Shown: positions 1 to 5,707 of the stretch, piece by piece
Numbering within the stretch: position 1 is the stretch's first letter
Layout: every line of letters starts with the position of its first letter
Virus record (IMG/VR): IMGVR_UViG_2541047945_000002
Direction: 5' to 3' (one strand)
DNA from: a virus
Taxonomy: Duplodnaviria; Heunggongvirae; Uroviricota; Caudoviricetes
DNA length: 5,707 nt
Position numbers and translations under genes: made by a program
Notes under the pieces: generated by a model
Databases searched by the model: none
What the model was told of the DNA's origin: nothing
Seen by the model: only the letters and a program-made list of their open reading frames with translations

Positions 1-2
1 AA

Positions 3-53
3 GCAGAAAAAGCTTATTATGCTTCCATCGGAAACGATGATCTGGCAGCCTGA
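3..53 (+). CDS. C-terminal fragment of IS3-family transposase OrfB (5'-partial, runs off window start)
   Basis: Frame 3 translation ...[16 protein letters not shown] stop (TGA 51-53), immediately upstream of the terminal inverted repeat. Assignment from recalled IS3-family OrfB C-termini; not searched. Confidence 0.5.
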
Positions 54-70
54 GTTCACAGATAAAATAC

Positions 71-95
71 TCTCCAGGAAACCCGGGGCGGTTCA
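71..95 (+). repeat. Right terminal inverted repeat (IRR) of the IS629-like element
   Basis: Reverse complement tgaaccgccccgggtttcctggaga matches 5478-5502 tgaaccgccccgggaatcctggaga at 22 of 25 positions. Confidence 0.75.
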
Positions 96-1929
96 GTCTG
101 AGTTCAATTCCTTCCTGTTGTCGCTTGTTGTAATCGTTTATTGATGAATTTAGGACGTCCTGAGCAATTTTTTCTGCTTGAAGTACGCCCAATTGCTGCT
201 TTAATCGTGCCAGCCTTTTATTTTGAGCTCCGCCATCTCCAATGCCACCTAACCCGAAAACTCCGGGTCGGGTATTTTTTTCTATTTCATCAATTTGACG
301 GAGAACATCTGAGATTTTTTGATCAAGGGAGGCCTCACGGCCAATGTCCAGCATGGAATCCCATGCCCATTTTGCGGAGTCTGCGACAGCTTTCCATGCA
401 GTCTCAAGATAACCAAGATTTTCTTTAATCTGGTTGGTGCGCTGGATCATTGAGGATGAGTATGCTTCTGTCGCAATGCGGGCGGCCTCCTGCTGGTTCC
501 CTTCATCCTGTAGCGCCTTAATCTGGTTATAAGTCGCAATTGTCAGAAAATGGTACTGATCATTAAGTTTTGATATGGCACTGACAGGATCCTTTGCAAT
601 TTCATTGAAGTCATTAACCAGTTGTTCGGTTGATATTCCTGTTACTTCGCTCGTTTTTACTATCGCTGTCGTCACTTGCTCCAGCGAACTGCTCGCTACC
701 TTTCCCGAACGCACAAGCTGGTTTAATACTGCCGCCGCAGCGCCAGTTGTCGAATCAGCCGCATTCCCGGCACGTTGAGCTATATCGGCCAATTGCCCGC
801 TGGTTGTCCCCAACTGATTTCCGGTAAGAATAAGAGATTTATTAAATTCGTCCTGCTCCTGAGAGCCTTTATAGTAAGCCAGTCCTAAGACCCCAACGGC
901 TGCTGCGGCCAGGGTAAAAGGATTAATTAATCCCAGCACATAAGAACCTACACCTTTGATCGCCGGGCCAATCCCACCGAACATATCTTTTAGCTGGCCG
1001 CCCTGCTGCATTAACACCATAAATGGCGACTGACCAGTGGACAACCCAACAACAATATCCGTCATTTGTGCAGGCAACATGCGCATAGCAAAAGCCGTTT
1101 GTTTTGCCGACATTCCGGTTTTGCTTAATTGTGATTGAGTAACCTCAAGCTCACTCCGCATAGCACGAAGTTTTCCAGAAAGCTCCTCATACATTTCAGG
1201 AGAAAGCATCCCCTTAGCTTTTGCTTCATTGAGCTGTTTCTGTTGTTCTACCAGACGATTAAAAGCAGTTCCGACAGGATCAAGTTGAGCAATCAGACGT
1301 TGCAAAGCAACAACCTGTTCATCATGCGCTTTTGCTGCTTCTCGCTCTGCCTGAGCCTCTCCGGTAAGCTCTCGCCGTGTTTCCTGTATTTTTCGGCTAT
1401 AATTCTCAAACTGAGAACCATTTATTTTCCCGGATGCAAACGCAGCATTAAGTTCATCATGCTGTTGTTCAAGATTTCTTAGCGCCGCAGCCAGAGGGTC
1501 GATCTTGTCCAGCATTCTTTGAAAGGCCTGAGCCTGCGCTTCCTGCTGGGCGGCAGCAAGTTTTCCGGCCTTCTCGGCTTCTCTCTGCGCTTGCGCAACC
1601 CCGCTCAATTCCTCTGTGGTTTCATTAAGTTTACGGACAAGAAATTCATATTCTTCTTTATCAATAAGCCCTTTATCGAAAAATTTCTTTAATTCAGAAT
1701 AGCGTCGACCGACAGTATCAATTGCGGCACCAACTGGATCAATAGCTGCTTTTAATTTTGCGAGCGCGTTCTTCTCATCTTCTGTTGCCTTAGTCACTTT
1801 CCCTGCGCTATTTGCAGCAGTTTCCCCAGCCTGCGTCATTTTGACTAATGAGGAGGTCAGATTGTCAGCATTATTTTTCGCTCCAGTGCTATCAATAATT
1901 ATTGCGAGACGCGAGGTTTGCTCTGCCAT
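96..1929 (-). CDS. Tail tape measure protein (lambda gpH-like), N-terminal ~611 codons; reading frame runs into the IS at 95/96, so the gene is interrupted
   Basis: ATG at 1929-1927 with AGGAG 9 nt upstream. Translation [20 protein letters not shown]... contains [40 protein letters not shown] and [29 protein letters not shown], which closely resemble conserved lambda gpH blocks (recalled, not searched). Hydrophobic [33 protein letters not shown] segment and coiled-coil-like repeats are typical of tape measure proteins. No stop before the IS junction. Missing from the ORF track because the frame is open to the window edge. Confidence 0.85.
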
Positions 1930-1944
1930 TTATTAAAACTCCTG

Positions 1945-1975
1945 ACAACAAAAAACCCACCGCGAAGTGGGTTTC
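1945..1975 (-). terminator. Putative rho-independent terminator/attenuator between the chaperone genes and the tape measure gene
   Basis: Minus-strand RNA reads GAAACCCAC-TTCGCG-GTGGGTTTTTTGTTGT: a GC-rich stem (CCCAC/GTGGG, extendable to 8 bp) followed by a T6 run, about 20 nt upstream of the tape measure SD. Confidence 0.4.
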
Positions 1976-2094
1976 AGGCGACATAATAGTAGATATAGCG
2001 ATTACGAGGCCACGCAATGCTTTTCTCCAGGAGCATCATCGATTTAATTAAAGACACCATCACATCTCTGTAACAGAGTGTACGTAATTAACAA

Positions 2095-2415
2095 CTACAC
2101 ACACTGCTCCTGAAAATACTGGTCATCCAGTGCAAAGATCACTGCTTCAAATTCATCGCGCTCAATCAATACCGGATGAGTGGCTAAATATTCATTTATC
2201 TCTGTCAGAGATAAAGGCAAAGGCACCCCAGCCATTCCAGCATAACGTCGGGCACGGGATATTACCGAATAGGCGTACAACAACTCCTTAAGCACCGGGT
2301 CTATTTCTGGTTCCGGTATCGGTGGCAACCTGAGTTTTTCTCGCTTCCATCTTGCCTTTTCCCCCCTTTCTCCCCCGAACTCCGATAACCACCGCTGGGC
2401 AGCTATGGCTTTTTT
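2095..2415 (-). CDS. gpT-like extension of the tail assembly chaperone, expressed as a G-T fusion by -1 frameshift; no convincing independent start
   Basis: The -1 frame relative to the gpG-like gene is open from the slippery site (2409-2415) to TAG at 2097-2095, encoding KKAIAAQRWLSEFGGERGEKARWKREKLRLPPIPEPEIDPVLKELLYAYS...QEQCV. The ORF track's 77-aa ORF starts at a TTG inside this frame. Position between chaperone and tape measure matches lambda G/T organisation. Confidence 0.7.
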   Translation of the reverse strand, partial: KKAIAAQRWLSEFGGERGEKARWKREKLRLPPIPEPEIDPVLKELLYAYSVISRARRYAGMAGVPLPLSLTEINEYLATHPVLIERDEFEAVIFALDDQYFQEQCV

Positions 2416-2864
2416 ATCGTATCCTGCTTCTGCTGCTCTTTACCCTGGGCGATGCTGGCTGCTTCTGCAAGGATCTGCCAGTACAACTCTGGATTCTGCT
2501 TAAGCAGCGCGATCCCTCGTTCTGCCGTATATTCCAGTGCAACCTCAACACCATTAACCAGTTCACCAACCCCTTTCCAGTCTTTCAGCAGATAACGAGC
2601 GGCATTATCAATGAGTAAATCATCAACAGAATCCACCTCGGAAACCTTTGAAATATCAAACTCCTTCGTTCCGACGTGCAAACTGGCATCCATTTTCTCA
2701 ATGTGGCGACGGATTAATGCATTACGGGAGCGATACTGATCGTTATCGCTGCTTGCCACCAACAGTTTTAACCCGTCTACAGGTTTTAAGTCCTTCATTG
2801 GCGTAAACCAGCGTTCTCCACCAATGATAATTTTCTGATTAAGAATAAACATCCATAACCTCAT
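2403..2864 (-). CDS. Tail assembly chaperone (lambda gpG-like); start may be the second ATG at 2852
   Basis: 153-codon ORF directly between major tail and tape measure genes, acidic C-terminal half, ends in the slippery site. GAGG lies 6 nt upstream of the second ATG (MFILNQ...), so the true start may be 2852. Confidence 0.7.
   Translation of the reverse strand: MRLWMFILNQKIIIGGERWFTPMKDLKPVDGLKLLVASSDNDQYRSRNALIRRHIEKMDASLHVGTKEFDISKVSEVDSVDDLLIDNAARYLLKDWKGVGELVNGVEVALEYTAERGIALLKQNPELYWQILAEAASIAQGKEQQKQDTIKKP
2409..2415 (-). other. Programmed -1 ribosomal frameshift slippery heptamer A AAA AAG
   Basis: Minus-strand ...ACG ATA AAA AAG CCA TAG: an X XXY YYZ heptamer in the last codons of the gpG-like frame, with the -1 frame open for about 100 further codons. 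Confidence 0.65.
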
Positions 2865-2912
2865 TCAATGCGTCCCCCTGTAGGGCAGTACCACAGGAGG
2901 AATAACGGAAAA

Positions 2913-3875
2913 TCAACTAATCGCCTCAGCACTGGCTTTTGCGATCACGGCAGCCGGGGAATTTTTTTTTCTGGTTATCGTAGGTGCTTCATCTGCTGCG
3001 GTAATGCTCAATTGAACCTGGATAATGTCGCTATTACCCCCATCAGGCCATTCACCTGACACCTGAACCTTCGGGAAACTGAAAGTGTATGCCCCCTCTC
3101 CATTCGAAAGCGTGAAGCTGAACGGAACTGTTTCTCCAGTCAGTGTTTTACTCCAGATTTCCCACGCGGCTTTAGACCATGAAAGCGTCACCGTACCGGA
3201 CGGTGTAAAAGTAGTCGGAATATTTGCTCCTGCATAAGGCGAGCCAGTCCCGATACAACGCTGTGTCTGGAGTTTGTTATCGAACTGAATATCAAAACTG
3301 TCGATACAAAAACCGTTACCTCCGGCAACACCATTCAGGCTTACTGCTGAAACCTCCTTAAACGAATAACGTAGCTTTCCTGCACTATCCACAGGTTCGC
3401 CTTTGATAAAATTCGTATCATCGGCCTTTGATTCCCAGTCCAGTCCGGCAAAGGTTACGGTCGCTGTAATATCGCCGTCGTTAGGGATCTGCATTTTCCA
3501 TGAGCCAACCTGCGCTCCTCTGACGACAGAGGCAATTCCGACATCGGACGCATAGGTCGCCAGAGAAAATGTTATTCGCTCATTCCCCATTGTCAGAGAA
3601 TCGCCTGACCATTCCGCGCCGAAACAGGATGCAAGAAAATCATCATGTTGACCCCAGCGAAATTTGGTACCAACATCACCGCCGACATCCACAGTGCCAG
3701 GCGTCGCCCCCTGAGCCATCCGGGAGCCACCAATCTCATTATTTTCGCCTTTATTCTGGGTGGGTTTTACTCCCCAGCTTGTGCGTTTTAATAAACTCCA
3801 GTCACCACTTGCTGGCGTAGTGCCTGCAACCGTCTCCCGGATAAATGCCGAGATAACCTTTGCACCTGAACTCAC
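2913..3875 (-). CDS. Major tail tube protein (320 codons, GTG start)
   Basis: Largest ORF, sited between tail terminator-like and chaperone genes. Start is GTG (plus 3873-3875 cac) with AGGAGG 6 nt upstream. Gly/Thr/Ser-rich, beta-rich composition typical of tail tube proteins. Assignment by synteny and composition. Confidence 0.65.
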   Translation of the reverse strand: MSSGAKVISAFIRETVAGTTPASGDWSLLKRTSWGVKPTQNKGENNEIGGSRMAQGATPGTVDVGGDVGTKFRWGQHDDFLASCFGAEWSGDSLTMGNERITFSLATYASDVGIASVVRGAQVGSWKMQIPNDGDITATVTFAGLDWESKADDTNFIKGEPVDSAGKLRYSFKEVSAVSLNGVAGGNGFCIDSFDIQFDNKLQTQRCIGTGSPYAGANIPTTFTPSGTVTLSWSKAAWEIWSKTLTGETVPFSFTLSNGEGAYTFSFPKVQVSGEWPDGGNSDIIQVQLSITAADEAPTITRKKNSPAAVIAKASAEAIS

Positions 3876-3901
3876 AGGAGCCTCCTATGTCATTAATTGC
3901 G

Positions 3902-4294
3902 CTAGAGCGCGCGATATGGAATTTGAAGATTAAGCTGGAACCAGCCATTCTTTTCGCCAACGGCTATTGAGGAAACAGCCTGGTAACTGAGACGATCGTC
4001 ATCCTGAAACTCAAACAGTTCCCGCAATTTATCGGCTGTCTCAGTAATGAGTTTTGAACCAGAACCTGCGGGGACAAATAACTGAATAATGATTATCCCC
4101 GTGCGATAAACAACCGGCCCCGCGCCAATTTCATTAACTCCAGCCTGCCCGGGAATATTACTTAACCGCGCCCAGATTAACTTACCGGAAGGATCGAACG
4201 TTGGCCCGTTCGGATACAATACGTCTTTTCCATCAATAATCGTCTGTGCCGTCATTCTGGAAATAACCGTATTTCTGATTTCAGTAAACTTCAT
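3902..4294 (-). CDS. Tail terminator protein (lambda gpU-like)
   Basis: 130 codons immediately upstream of the major tail gene. N-terminus MKFTEIRNTVISRM resembles the gpU N-terminus as recalled (MKHTELRAAV...). ATGA start/stop overlap with the upstream gene. Confidence 0.55.
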   Translation of the reverse strand: MKFTEIRNTVISRMTAQTIIDGKDVLYPNGPTFDPSGKLIWARLSNIPGQAGVNEIGAGPVVYRTGIIIIQLFVPAGSGSKLITETADKLRELFEFQDDDRLSYQAVSSIAVGEKNGWFQLNLQIPYRAL

Positions 4295-4671
4295 TTGTAA
4301 GCCTGTAAAACACCATGAAAAGCGTTGGCATACACGCCAGTTGGCGCTTGTTGTGAATGACCGTTTTCAAGAGCCTCTGCATAAGGAAGGTTATTCTGGA
4401 TATAAATAACCCCGTAATTTGCAGCTTTCGAAATAACCCCGATCCCACGCTGAACAGCAATCGTACCGTTCGGATCCACGTTATCAGATATACCAAAATC
4501 GGGATGCTGTAACGACACCAGGTTGTTATTTCTGAAACGTCCGGTATCAACCGGAGCAGCAATATCAATAGCAGTAAGAATCTGCATAGCGATGTAGCGA
4601 ATCTTCAGCCCTACATCTTCCTCAATCATCCCGGCAAATATTGACGGTTCTATATCCCATGCCTTTGCCAT
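4291..4671 (-). CDS. Tail completion / head-tail joining protein (HK97 gp10-like)
   Basis: 126 codons; position and size fit the HK97 gp10 / lambda gpZ slot. TAAATG junction with the upstream gene and ATGA overlap with the downstream gene indicate translational coupling. Confidence 0.5.
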   Translation of the reverse strand: MAKAWDIEPSIFAGMIEEDVGLKIRYIAMQILTAIDIAAPVDTGRFRNNNLVSLQHPDFGISDNVDPNGTIAVQRGIGVISKAANYGVIYIQNNLPYAEALENGHSQQAPTGVYANAFHGVLQAYK

Positions 4672-5055
4672 TTACGCTCTCCTTAACTGGATAGAGTAAA
4701 CTGATGCGGAAGGATCTACACTTGCTGTAATTACCTCGTATCGTTGTAACTGCCTTGATACAGGATCATAAATCTCAATAATATGGTCGACAGCTGGTTT
4801 ATCCGTAACCTCGCATACCAGAGCGGTTAATTTAAGGTCACCATGCAAAATATTAATCCCATCAATTCTGCCCAGCTTATAACGTGTCAACACGCCTCGC
4901 CCGGTATAGATTGCGGTGGATTCGCCGCCAGTTTCCGTCACAGGATCCCAGTGCCGGTGCGTAACGTAAGAACCAGAAAAATCACTCACGGCGTCCGCTA
5001 AATCCTCATCAAAAGCAGCGGCAACCTCTGACTGAATCTCTTCACGAAGCCCCAT
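4672..5055 (-). CDS. Head-tail adaptor / head closure protein (putative)
   Basis: 127 codons; start overlaps the upstream stop (TAATG). Synteny with HK97-like head-tail joining genes; no sequence motif confidently recognised. Confidence 0.45.
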   Translation of the reverse strand: MGLREEIQSEVAAAFDEDLADAVSDFSGSYVTHRHWDPVTETGGESTAIYTGRGVLTRYKLGRIDGINILHGDLKLTALVCEVTDKPAVDHIIEIYDPVSRQLQRYEVITASVDPSASVYSIQLRRA

Positions 5056-5450
5056 TATCCCCCCCTCACAACCCTGACTTGTGAGCGACTAAGTCCGTAC
5101 GGTTTCAGCAGTGCTATCGCAAGCTGTAAATCGGGTTCAAGCAATGCAGTGCTGTTTGCTGGCAACTCAGAAAATGATTTCGATACACTGACCCCGTCAG
5201 CCGACACGGCTTTACTGATAACAACGCCAGAATCATTTTTCTGCTGAAACAACTTACCGAATGAGGCAATTCTGGCTGCATATGCTCCCGCAAGTTTTAC
5301 CTCTTCCGGAATACGGGATGGGTTAATTTTCAGGTTGAAGCCATTAAGCCAGGCATTAGCCATTAAAACAGCTTTATTTTTAGCGTTCTCACTCGTCCAG
5401 GCGTTCCCAAACGCATTATCAACGTCATCACAGGTCACGTAAGTGATCAT
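5055..5450 (-). CDS. Head-tail connector protein (gp6-like, putative)
   Basis: 131 codons; ATG at 5450-5448 with AGGAG 8 nt upstream. First gene of the head-tail joining block; N-terminal flavour of gp6-like connector proteins. Assignment mainly by position. Confidence 0.45.
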   Translation of the reverse strand: MITYVTCDDVDNAFGNAWTSENAKNKAVLMANAWLNGFNLKINPSRIPEEVKLAGAYAARIASFGKLFQQKNDSGVVISKAVSADGVSVSKSFSELPANSTALLEPDLQLAIALLKPYGLSRSQVRVVRGG

Positions 5451-5477
5451 GTGTTACTCCTGAGTTTTCCAGCCCAT

Positions 5478-5502
5478 TGAACCGCCCCGGGAATCCTGGA
5501 GA
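5478..5502 (+). repeat. Left terminal inverted repeat (IRL) of the IS629-like element
   Basis: 25-nt sequence matching the reverse complement of 71-95 at 22/25 positions. Confidence 0.8.
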
Positions 5503-5531
5503 CTAAACTTCCTGAGAAAGAGGTAAACAGG

Positions 5532-5707
5532 ATGACTAAAAATACTCGTTTTTCCCCTGAAGTCCGTCAACGGGCAGTCCGTATGGTTCTGGAAAGTCAG
5601 GGCGAATATGACTCACAATGGGCGACAATTTGTTCCATTGCTCCAAAGATTGGCTGTACGCCGGAGACTCTGCGTGTCTGGGTTCGCCAGCATGAGCGGG
5701 ATACCGG
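5532..5707 (+). CDS. IS629-like transposase OrfA, N-terminal part (3'-partial)
   Basis: ATG at 5532; 58 codons with the helix-turn-helix-containing N-terminus characteristic of IS3-family OrfA; open to the window edge. Confidence 0.85.

What the first reader, a model, noticed from the sequence alone, without database searches (positions are those of the whole stretch)
5451..5707. Second IS629-like copy inserted 27 bp upstream of the head-tail joining genes, severing the 3' end of the upstream gene
The IS left end at 5478 lies 27 bp upstream of the ATG at 5450. In the 27 bp between are the last codons of an upstream minus-strand gene: either ...MGWKTQE-TAA, or ...WAGKLRSNT-TGA overlapping the next start as ATGA. 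That gene, probably a capsid or head-completion gene, has lost its body to the IS. The insertion also separates the whole tail module from any upstream late promoter, so expression would depend on read-through or an IS-borne outward promoter.
Basis: partly seen in the sequence, partly recalled or inferred. Interest (0 to 1): 0.55.

Follow-up and report, generated by a model that had tools for sequence, protein, structure and literature searches.

The report
IS629 insertion in defective Rac-type prophage
The end of this window is the start of an ordinary IS629 insertion sequence that jumped into a tiny gene of unknown function between the capsid and neck genes of a decaying Rac-type prophage of E. 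coli; this is routine mobile-element damage, not a new kind of feature.

Summary
Bases 5478-5707 are the first 230 nt of IS629, 100% identical to annotated IS629 copies. Homology to intact prophages stops exactly at 5477.

This is not a capsid or head-completion gene. The ribosome-binding site and start of the next gene, the head-tail adaptor Ad1, are untouched.

The reciprocal junction exists in a related assembly and as an exact 52-aa product on 17 public contigs. It reads IS end, CAT, then the rest of the gene. So the junction arose by simple transposition with a 3-bp CAT duplication, and only six codons were cut off.

The window is the whole 5707-bp scaffold KE702421.1 of E. coli UMEA 3609-1. 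It is bounded at both ends by collapsed IS629 repeats. The other end truncates the tape-measure gene, so the prophage is defective anyway.

I could not show that this genome still carries the head side, and indirect evidence is mixed. No outward promoter-like site was found.

Verdict: already known, low interest.

The parts
5478..5707 (+). First 230 nt of IS629 (IS3 family). The left inverted repeat is 5478-5502. The rest of the element lies beyond the scaffold end.
   Evidence: 100% identity to E. coli IS copies and to features annotated IS629. IRL/IRR match 23/25. Only 94.8% identical to the copy annotated IS1203 in LR-71-1.
5532..5707 (+). N-terminal 58 codons of IS629 orfA (helix-turn-helix part of the transposase). 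The ORF runs off the scaffold.
   Evidence: PF01527 HTH_Tnp_1, E = 6.5e-8. ORF listing. Called as a 59-residue partial gene in the NCBI record.
5475..5477 (.). CAT, the near-side copy of the 3-bp target-site duplication. On the minus strand it is ATG, codon 52 of the interrupted gene.
   Evidence: The intact sequence is GCC-CAT-AGCC. The window has CAT|TGAACC. The related far side has TCA|CAT|AGCC. Six other IS629/IS1203 insertions in this prophage family all have 3-bp duplications.
5454..5477 (-). 3' remnant of the 58-codon gene (WP_000908084.1 family, phrog_1514): codons 52-58, MGWKTQE, plus TAA.
   Evidence: Translations. Annotation of intact relatives. PHROG hit E = 3.5e-43.
5457..5461 (-). 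AGGAG Shine-Dalgarno sequence of the Ad1 gene, 6 nt before its ATG. It lies inside the last codons of the interrupted gene and is intact, 16 nt from the IS end.
   Evidence: Read directly from the sequence. Its function is inferred.
5055..5450 (-). Head-tail adaptor Ad1 gene (131 aa), the first gene after the insertion. It is intact.
   Evidence: phrog_493 'head-tail adaptor Ad1', E = 7.4e-49. The identical protein is indexed in 39,509 blocks of the public assembly collection, and of the ten contexts shown nine have the called 58-aa gene just upstream.
2913..5055 (-). Rest of the neck and tail-tube module: Hc1 (4672-5055), Neck1/tail completion (4291-4671), tail terminator (3902-4294) and tail tube (2913-3875).
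   Evidence: PHROG hits. Pfam Phage_tail_terminator_5. Annotation of relatives.
96..1929 (-). N-terminal 611 codons of the tape-measure gene (full length 1077 aa). The gene is cut by the other IS629 junction, and the ORF reads on through the IS end to the scaffold edge.
   Evidence: 643-aa open frame. (1077-aa intact product). (the exact partial product is on record as G979_05013, E. coli UMEA 3609-1).
1..95 (+). Last 95 nt of an IS629 copy, in the same orientation as the one at 5478. It forms the left boundary of the scaffold.
   Evidence: The IMG/VR copy of the contig stops 95 nt into the IS at both ends.

Best explanation
**What it is.** Positions 5478-5707 are the left end of an IS629 element, with its transposase on the + strand and so antisense to the phage late genes.

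**What it hit.** IS629 transposed into a Rac-family lambdoid prophage of E. coli UMEA 3609-1. It landed between codons 52 and 53 of a conserved 58-codon gene of unknown function. That gene lies between the major capsid gene and the head-tail adaptor gene.

**Shown.**
- The identity of the element.
- The exact breakpoint.
- The native reading frame of the 27-bp remnant.
- Complementary near-side and far-side junctions that both carry CAT. The insertion therefore made a 3-bp duplication, as IS3-family elements do.
- On the far side the gene keeps 52 codons and is terminated by the TGA of the IS terminus.
- The adaptor gene keeps its start codon and AGGAG site.

**Inferred.**
- The element is a full 1310-bp copy.
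- It moved by the copy-out/paste-in route of IS3-family elements.
- It adds 1.3 kb of antisense DNA to the late operon.

**Context.** The window is a complete short-read scaffold that ends in collapsed IS629 repeats on both sides. The other junction truncates the tape-measure gene at codon 611 of 1077. The prophage therefore cannot make tails whatever happens to transcription.
For: **Element and breakpoint**
- 230/230 nt identity to IS629.
- IRL/IRR match 23/25, and orfA carries an HTH domain.
- Homology to 755 of 5426 complete E. coli genomes ends exactly at 5477.
- Intact relatives continue with the 58-aa gene and then the capsid gene.

**Reciprocal junction**
- UViG 2541047945_000009 ends TCA|CAT|AGCCTTCC.
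- It is followed by a head module 99.98% identical to that of strain FDAARGOS_1249. That strain's tail module has 0 mismatches to window 96-5477.
- That genome shares another unique IS629 junction with the genome holding the window's contig.
- The exact 52-aa product ...NWKAM is on 17 public contigs.

**Family behaviour**
- Six other IS629/IS1203 insertions in this prophage family have 3-bp duplications.
- IS629 is reported to sit mostly in prophages and to duplicate 3-4 bp (PMC3271280).

**Source**
- The window equals scaffold KE702421.1 of GCA_000461395.1.
Against: - Both junctions were not seen in one assembly.
- The 52-aa product carries accessions EQZ40303.1 and EQZ44252.1. The window's tape-measure fragment carries EQZ27867.1 and EQZ32715.1. 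The gap is more than 12,000 numbers, so these appear to be other genomes of the same batch.
- In IMG/VR the near side occurs only in genome 2541047946 and the far side only in 2541047945.
- Only 230 nt of the element are visible, so its completeness is unverified.
- The near-side junction is absent from the 5426 complete E. coli genomes, and the far-side junction was not found in them either.
Confidence: 0.9

Rival explanations
1. Present-day rearrangement. The junction arose by insertion, but in this genome the head side has since been lost. The route would be an IS629-adjacent deletion or recombination with another directly oriented IS629 copy. The 5.4-kb neck/tail segment would then be an orphan fragment between two IS629 copies, and the rest of the 58-codon gene would no longer lie beyond the IS.
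For: - The exact 52-aa far-side product is not recorded under accession numbers near those of the window's genome.
- IMG/VR holds no head-module or far-side sequence for genome 2541047946.
- Three of nine IS629/IS1203 copies examined in relatives of this prophage flank deletions rather than duplications (TB354, Z1323CEC0004, E28).
- Only 21 of 47 IS629 sites in O157 genomes keep a duplication (PMC3271280).
- IEE-dependent IS629-adjacent deletions are described (PMC9330008).
Against: - All of this evidence is absence of evidence.
- The IMG/VR copy holds each junction once although NCBI has each in two assemblies, so it is incomplete or de-duplicated.
- At most four accession numbers are displayed per protein.
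- A 52-aa ORF next to a contig end may simply not have been called.
Confidence: 0.5
2. Assembly artefact. The phage-IS join at 5477/5478 is a chimeric join made by the assembler at a repeat and is not a real junction.
For: The scaffold ends in collapsed IS629 repeats on both sides. The IMG/VR version stops exactly 95 nt into the IS at each end, which looks like a K-1 overlap.
Against: - The break falls on the first base of the IS terminal repeat.
- The same contig, identified by its 643-aa tape-measure fragment, is on record in two NCBI assemblies. IMG/VR holds a 100%-identical copy that contains the junction itself.
- A reciprocal junction with the matching 3-bp duplication exists elsewhere.
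Confidence: 0.02
3. Functional rewiring. The IS provides an outward promoter that now drives the neck/tail genes. Alternatively, the two direct IS629 copies make the 5.4-kb module a composite transposon.
For: - The adaptor gene's ribosome-binding site and start are intact, 16-27 nt from the IS end.
- Two IS629 ends in direct orientation bracket the segment.
Against: - No sigma-70-like site on either strand in 5300-5707 or in a full-length copy.
- The transposase points away from the phage genes.
- No paper in the library reports an IS629 outward promoter.
- The module carries a truncated tape-measure gene, so it has no obvious selectable function.
Confidence: 0.03

Closest known systems
IS629 (IS3 family) insertions in lambdoid prophages of E. 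coli O157:H7 and other STEC
   Same: - The same element at 100% identity over the 230 nt seen.
- The same habit: 62% of IS629 copies in four O157 genomes lie in prophages or prophage-like elements, and they duplicate 3-4 bp (PMC3271280).
- Gene disruption in a prophage, as in phiPA2 (PMC10810198).
   Different: - The host is a non-STEC clinical isolate (UMEA 3609-1), and the target is a Rac-family prophage, not an Stx phage.
- This exact site is absent from 5426 complete E. coli genomes.
Independent IS629/IS1203 insertions in the same Rac-family prophage (strains LR-71-1, LD91-1, 23CRST009, GDSC2239PM, DXMF6-3R and others)
   Same: - The same prophage module, the same IS group and 3-bp duplications.
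- LR-71-1 has a copy only 32 bp away in the same orientation, inside the first codons of Ad1. DXMF6-3R has one about 220 bp away.
   Different: - They sit at different nucleotides and so are separate events.
- The LR-71-1 copy is the IS1203 variant, 94.8% identical to the window's IS.
Rac cryptic prophage of E. coli K-12
   Same: The same chromosomal prophage family. Intact relatives carry kilR, sieB, ydaE/F/T/V, trkG and ydaY, with uspF/ompN-type neighbours. Like Rac, it is a defective remnant.
   Different: From my own knowledge, K-12 Rac has lost most of the head and tail module. Here the neck/tail module is still present but is cut by IS629 at both ends.
IS629-associated adjacent deletions (IEE-dependent) and IS-by-IS recombination
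   Same: Relatives show IS629/IS1203 copies flanking deletions inside this prophage. The literature describes such deletions (PMC9330008). This is the likely fate, or perhaps the present state, of this locus.
   Different: No deletion is demonstrated at this copy. No iee gene was looked for.

Membership tests
IS629 (IS3 family insertion sequence) | Near-identity of nucleotide sequence to the reference IS629 | tested here: met
   230/230 nt identical to copies annotated 'insertion sequence: IS3 family IS629' (H119) and to many E. coli copies. Only the first 230 of 1310 nt are available.
IS629 (IS3 family insertion sequence) | Terminal imperfect inverted repeats beginning 5'-TG and ending CA-3' | tested here: met
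   The IRL at 5478 starts TGAACC. The right end at window 90-95 ends GGTTCA. 23 of the first 25 nt match. The two ends seen belong to different copies.
IS629 (IS3 family insertion sequence) | orfA with a helix-turn-helix domain, followed by orfB (DDE/rve) reached by a programmed -1 frameshift | tested here: inconclusive
   The orfA N-terminus hits PF01527. The frameshift site and orfB lie beyond the scaffold end. Full copies in relatives are annotated with a programmed frameshift.
IS629 (IS3 family insertion sequence) | 3-4 bp target-site duplication | tested here: met
   CAT is on the near side in the window and on the far side in L071. The exact 52-aa product implied by ATG-TGA is on 17 contigs. 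The two sides were not seen in the same assembly.
Rac-family lambdoid prophage late operon (neck/tail module) | Gene order capsid, small ORF, Ad1, Hc1, Neck1, terminator, tube, chaperone, tape measure, within a prophage carrying Rac marker genes | tested here: met
   PHROG assignments. Synteny in intact relatives. kilR, sieB, ydaE/F/T/V, trkG and ydaY in strain 7/2.
Composite transposon | The same IS-flanked unit is found at more than one genomic location, with a duplication flanking the whole unit | not testable with these tools
   The outer flanks of both IS copies lie outside the scaffold. The unit occurs once in IMG/VR and in two NCBI assemblies as the same scaffold.

The most novel reading that the evidence does not exclude
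The related UMEA genomes may be snapshots of stepwise IS629-driven dismantling of one prophage. One group would keep only the IS-flanked 5.4-kb neck/tail fragment, with the near-side junction. Another group would keep only the head and early half, with the far-side junction. Each would be the product of a different recombination or adjacent deletion at the same IS629 copy. A variant of this reading is that the IS629-bracketed neck/tail cassette is itself mobile as a composite unit.
Probability: 0.15. Interest if true: 0.3.

Novelty: already known. Interest (0 to 1): 0.07.

Why it matters
It matters little beyond annotation.
- It shows that this scaffold is a repeat-bounded fragment of a defective Rac-type prophage.
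- The 27-bp stretch is the tail of a small conserved ORF, not of a capsid gene.
- The tail module cannot be functional, because its tape-measure gene is cut.
- It adds one more site to the many IS629/IS1203 insertions that erode this prophage family. This could serve as a strain-typing marker for the UMEA lineage.

Tried and rejected
**Looking for the junctions elsewhere**
- Exact near-side junction pattern: 0 hits in GTDB representative genomes and JGI metagenomes. One hit in IMG/VR, which is the same contig.
- Far-side pattern requiring 14 nt of IS: 0 hits in all three collections. This was misleading, because the one far-side contig in IMG/VR is trimmed at the stop codon and keeps only 3 nt of IS.
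- Synthetic far-side query against complete E. coli genomes: only two nearby but different insertions.

**Looking up products**
- The 38-aa chimeric ORF across the junction (5454-5570) is not on record anywhere.
- One cluster look-up was wasted. The 415-aa junction product of L107 was pasted truncated to 400 aa.
- The truncated-capsid product of L087 belongs to unrelated strains.

**Other leads**
- The other IS629 right-end flanks in genome 2541047946 (L100, L107, L117, L123) are not parts of the Rac prophage, so none is an obvious alternative far side.
- Other truncated tape-measure products in the same protein cluster come from different junctions.
- The 58-aa protein has no match in Pfam, NCBIfam or PDB sequences.

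**Rejected ideas**
- An apparent bias of IS copies towards the + orientation in relatives. It is an artefact of the search, which joins only same-strand pieces.
It is not the native frame.

Full report
**What is in the window.**
- The window is a block of phage neck and tail genes on the minus strand, bracketed by two IS ends on the plus strand.
- Positions 1-95 are the last 95 nt of an IS3-family element, ending GGTTCA.
- Positions 5478-5707 are the first 230 nt of the same kind of element, starting TGAACC.
- The two ends are in the same orientation, and their first 25 nt match 23/25 as inverted repeats.
- PHROG profiles identify the genes in between, listed here from the right end of the window to the left:

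| Coordinates (minus strand) | Gene |
|---|---|
| 5055-5450 | head-tail adaptor Ad1 |
| 4672-5055 | head closure Hc1 |
| 4291-4671 | Neck1 / tail completion |
| 3902-4294 | tail terminator |
| 2913-3875 | tail tube |
| 2403-2864 | YdaY-type tail assembly chaperone |
| 96-1929 | first 611 codons of a tape-measure gene |

- The intact tape-measure product is 1077 aa.

**Check of the observation.**
- The 230 nt from 5478 are 100% identical to many E. coli IS copies. They are also 100% identical to elements explicitly annotated IS629 in phage records.
- They are only 94.8% identical to the copy annotated IS1203 in strain LR-71-1.
- orfA begins at 5532 and carries the HTH_Tnp_1 domain.
- The phage part 93/96-5477 is 99-100% identical to a prophage present in 755 of 5426 complete E. 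coli genomes. The identity stops exactly at 5477.
- In intact copies the sequence continues ...CCAGCCCAT|AGCCTTCCAGTTG.

**Which gene was hit.**
- In intact relatives, the gene just upstream of Ad1 is a 177-bp ORF, WP_000908084.1. The P22-type major capsid gene lies further upstream.
- Its product is MAGLTKEQRAQREAAQKTQIELVVMVTDYQMFPGAPTIANVHPDEVDNWKAMGWKTQE.
- The IS sits between codon 52 (ATG) and codon 53, counting the duplicated ATG on both sides.
- The protein belongs to phrog_1514, of unknown function. It has no Pfam, NCBIfam or PDB-sequence match. Calling it a capsid or head-completion gene is not supported.
- The AGGAG site of Ad1 (5457-5461, 6 nt before the ATG) lies inside the last codons of the small gene and is intact.

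**Where the window comes from.**
- The 643-aa open frame of the truncated tape-measure gene is on record as 'G979_05013, partial [Escherichia coli UMEA 3609-1]'.
- The window is identical to the reverse complement of the whole 5707-bp scaffold KE702421.1 of GCA_000461395.1.
- An IMG/VR copy of the contig (L017) is identical over 1-5572. It stops exactly 95 nt into the IS at both ends.
- The window is thus a short-read contig that ends where the assembler met the collapsed IS629 repeat. The far side of the IS cannot be read from it.
- Intact relatives carry kilR, sieB, ydaE/F/T/V, trkG and ydaY, so this is a Rac-family lambdoid prophage.

**The far side.**
- The exact near-side junction is absent from 5426 complete E. 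coli genomes, from GTDB representatives and from JGI metagenomes.
- My first far-side pattern found nothing.
- A scan with a rare head-module k-mer then found UViG 2541047945_000009. Read in window orientation, its last bases are TCA|CAT|AGCCTTCCAGTTG....
  - TCA is the end of the IS629 right repeat.
  - CAT is the same triplet that ends the phage sequence in the window.
  - The rest is the remainder of the 58-codon gene, followed by the head module.
- That head module is 99.98% identical to the one in strain FDAARGOS_1249. The tail module of that strain has no mismatch to window 96-5477.
- The UViG is trimmed at the stop codon of the truncated gene, ...AAG GCT ATG TGA, which explains why the longer pattern failed.
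- The genome holding this UViG shares a unique IS629 junction and 2.4 kb of identical flank with the genome holding L017.
- Independently, the exact 52-aa product ending ...NWKAM is on 17 public contigs, the longest 3.96 Mb. The native codon 53 is GGC, so a point mutation to a stop would need two changes. The IS terminus is the natural explanation.
- Together, the near and far junctions show a simple transposition with a 3-bp duplication, CAT.
- Six other IS629/IS1203 insertions in this prophage family also have 3-bp duplications. PMC3271280 reports 3-4 bp for IS629.

**What remains open.**
- I could not show both junctions in one assembly.
- The 52-aa product carries EQZ40303.1 and EQZ44252.1. 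The window's tape-measure fragment carries EQZ27867.1 and EQZ32715.1. That distance is larger than one genome's worth of proteins.
- In IMG/VR the near side, the Ad1 region and a tail k-mer occur only in genome 2541047946. The far side and the head k-mer occur only in 2541047945.
- This could mean that the window's genome has since lost the head side. Three of nine IS629/IS1203 copies examined in relatives flank deletions, and such deletions are described for IS629 (PMC9330008).
- It could also be a data artefact. The IMG/VR copy holds each junction once although NCBI has each in two assemblies. Only four accession numbers are shown per protein.
- I put the chance that the head side is still attached in this genome at about 40-50%.

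**Consequences and mechanism.**
- Shown:
  - The small gene loses six codons on the far-side copy.
  - The window keeps a seven-codon remnant.
  - Ad1 keeps its translation signals.
  - The IS transposase points away from the phage genes.
- No sigma-70-like promoter was found on either strand in 5300-5707 or in a full-length copy.
- Two weak terminator-like sites were found in the full copy, which is no more than chance predicts.
- Inferred from general knowledge of lambdoid phages: the late genes are one operon read by an antiterminated polymerase, and antitermination is known to relieve IS polarity. A 1.3-kb antisense insertion therefore need not silence downstream genes.
- The gene order in strain 7/2 runs in one direction: holin, lysozyme, Rz, trkG, terminase, head, neck, tail. 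This fits a single late operon.
- The point is largely moot, because the tape-measure gene is cut after codon 611 by the other IS629 junction.

**Comparison and verdict.**
- This is a textbook IS629 insertion in a prophage. The element is known, and the behaviour is known: 62% of IS629 copies in O157 genomes lie in prophages (PMC3271280).
- The same prophage family carries many independent IS629/IS1203 insertions, including one 32 bp away in LR-71-1 and one about 220 bp away in DXMF6-3R.
- Nothing here is new in kind.
- The only mildly interesting possibility is that related UMEA genomes preserve reciprocal decay products of one IS629-marked prophage.

Noticed in passing
window 1-95 and 96-1929: The left IS629 junction cuts the tape-measure gene after ...QQEGIELR (codon 611 of 1077). 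The ORF then reads through the IS end to the scaffold edge without a stop. The same junction nucleotide occurs in strain Z1323CEC0004 (L004). There it adjoins a 5'-truncated IS copy, a second full copy and a deletion reaching the C40 peptidase gene. That prophage differs by 14 SNPs over 5.4 kb and 3/95 in the IS end, so this is either an old shared insertion or a recurrent one.
   Followed up: partly
whole window: The window is the entire scaffold KE702421.1 (5707 bp) of GCA_000461395.1, E. coli UMEA 3609-1. The IMG/VR version is 135 nt shorter at the right end, with exactly 95 nt of IS at each end. That looks like a K-1 overlap of the assembler.
   Followed up: yes
L002 8245-9554 (strain LR-71-1); record NZ_CM139232.1 near 820475-821006 (strain DXMF6-3R): Two further independent IS1203-type insertions lie within about 250 bp of the window's site. 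One is 32 bp away inside the first codons of Ad1 (duplication AAG). The other is about 220 bp away. Whether this stretch is a preferred target was not tested, and my searches were biased towards this region and towards one orientation.
   Followed up: partly
L087 (IMG/VR 2606217117_000010) and protein P0061: Another IS629 copy with the same right-end variant is joined to the major capsid gene 401 bp to the right of the window's insertion site. The resulting 324-aa capsid-IS fusion product is annotated in E. coli 2-222-05_S3_C2/C3. It is a separate event in the same prophage haplotype.
   Followed up: partly
window 2095-2864, minus strand: The YdaY-type tail assembly chaperone ORF (153 aa from the first start; annotated as 119 or 149 aa in relatives) is followed by a 77-aa ORF (phrog_1189), just before the tape-measure gene. 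That is the position where lambdoid phages have the G/GT frameshift pair. No slippery site was looked for.
   Followed up: no
L135-L138 (IMG/VR), position equivalent to window 5475-5477: An allelic form of the 58-codon gene has CAG instead of CAT at the insertion triplet (Leu instead of Met at codon 52), along with other nearby substitutions. The small ORF stays open in all 62 uninterrupted IMG/VR copies I looked at only in part.
   Followed up: no
annotations of relatives (L002, L003 and hits H49-H66): The Ad1 homologue is variously named 'protein singed', 'glutamate 5-kinase' or 'hypothetical protein' in RefSeq records. The PHROG profile clearly makes it a head-tail adaptor.
   Followed up: no
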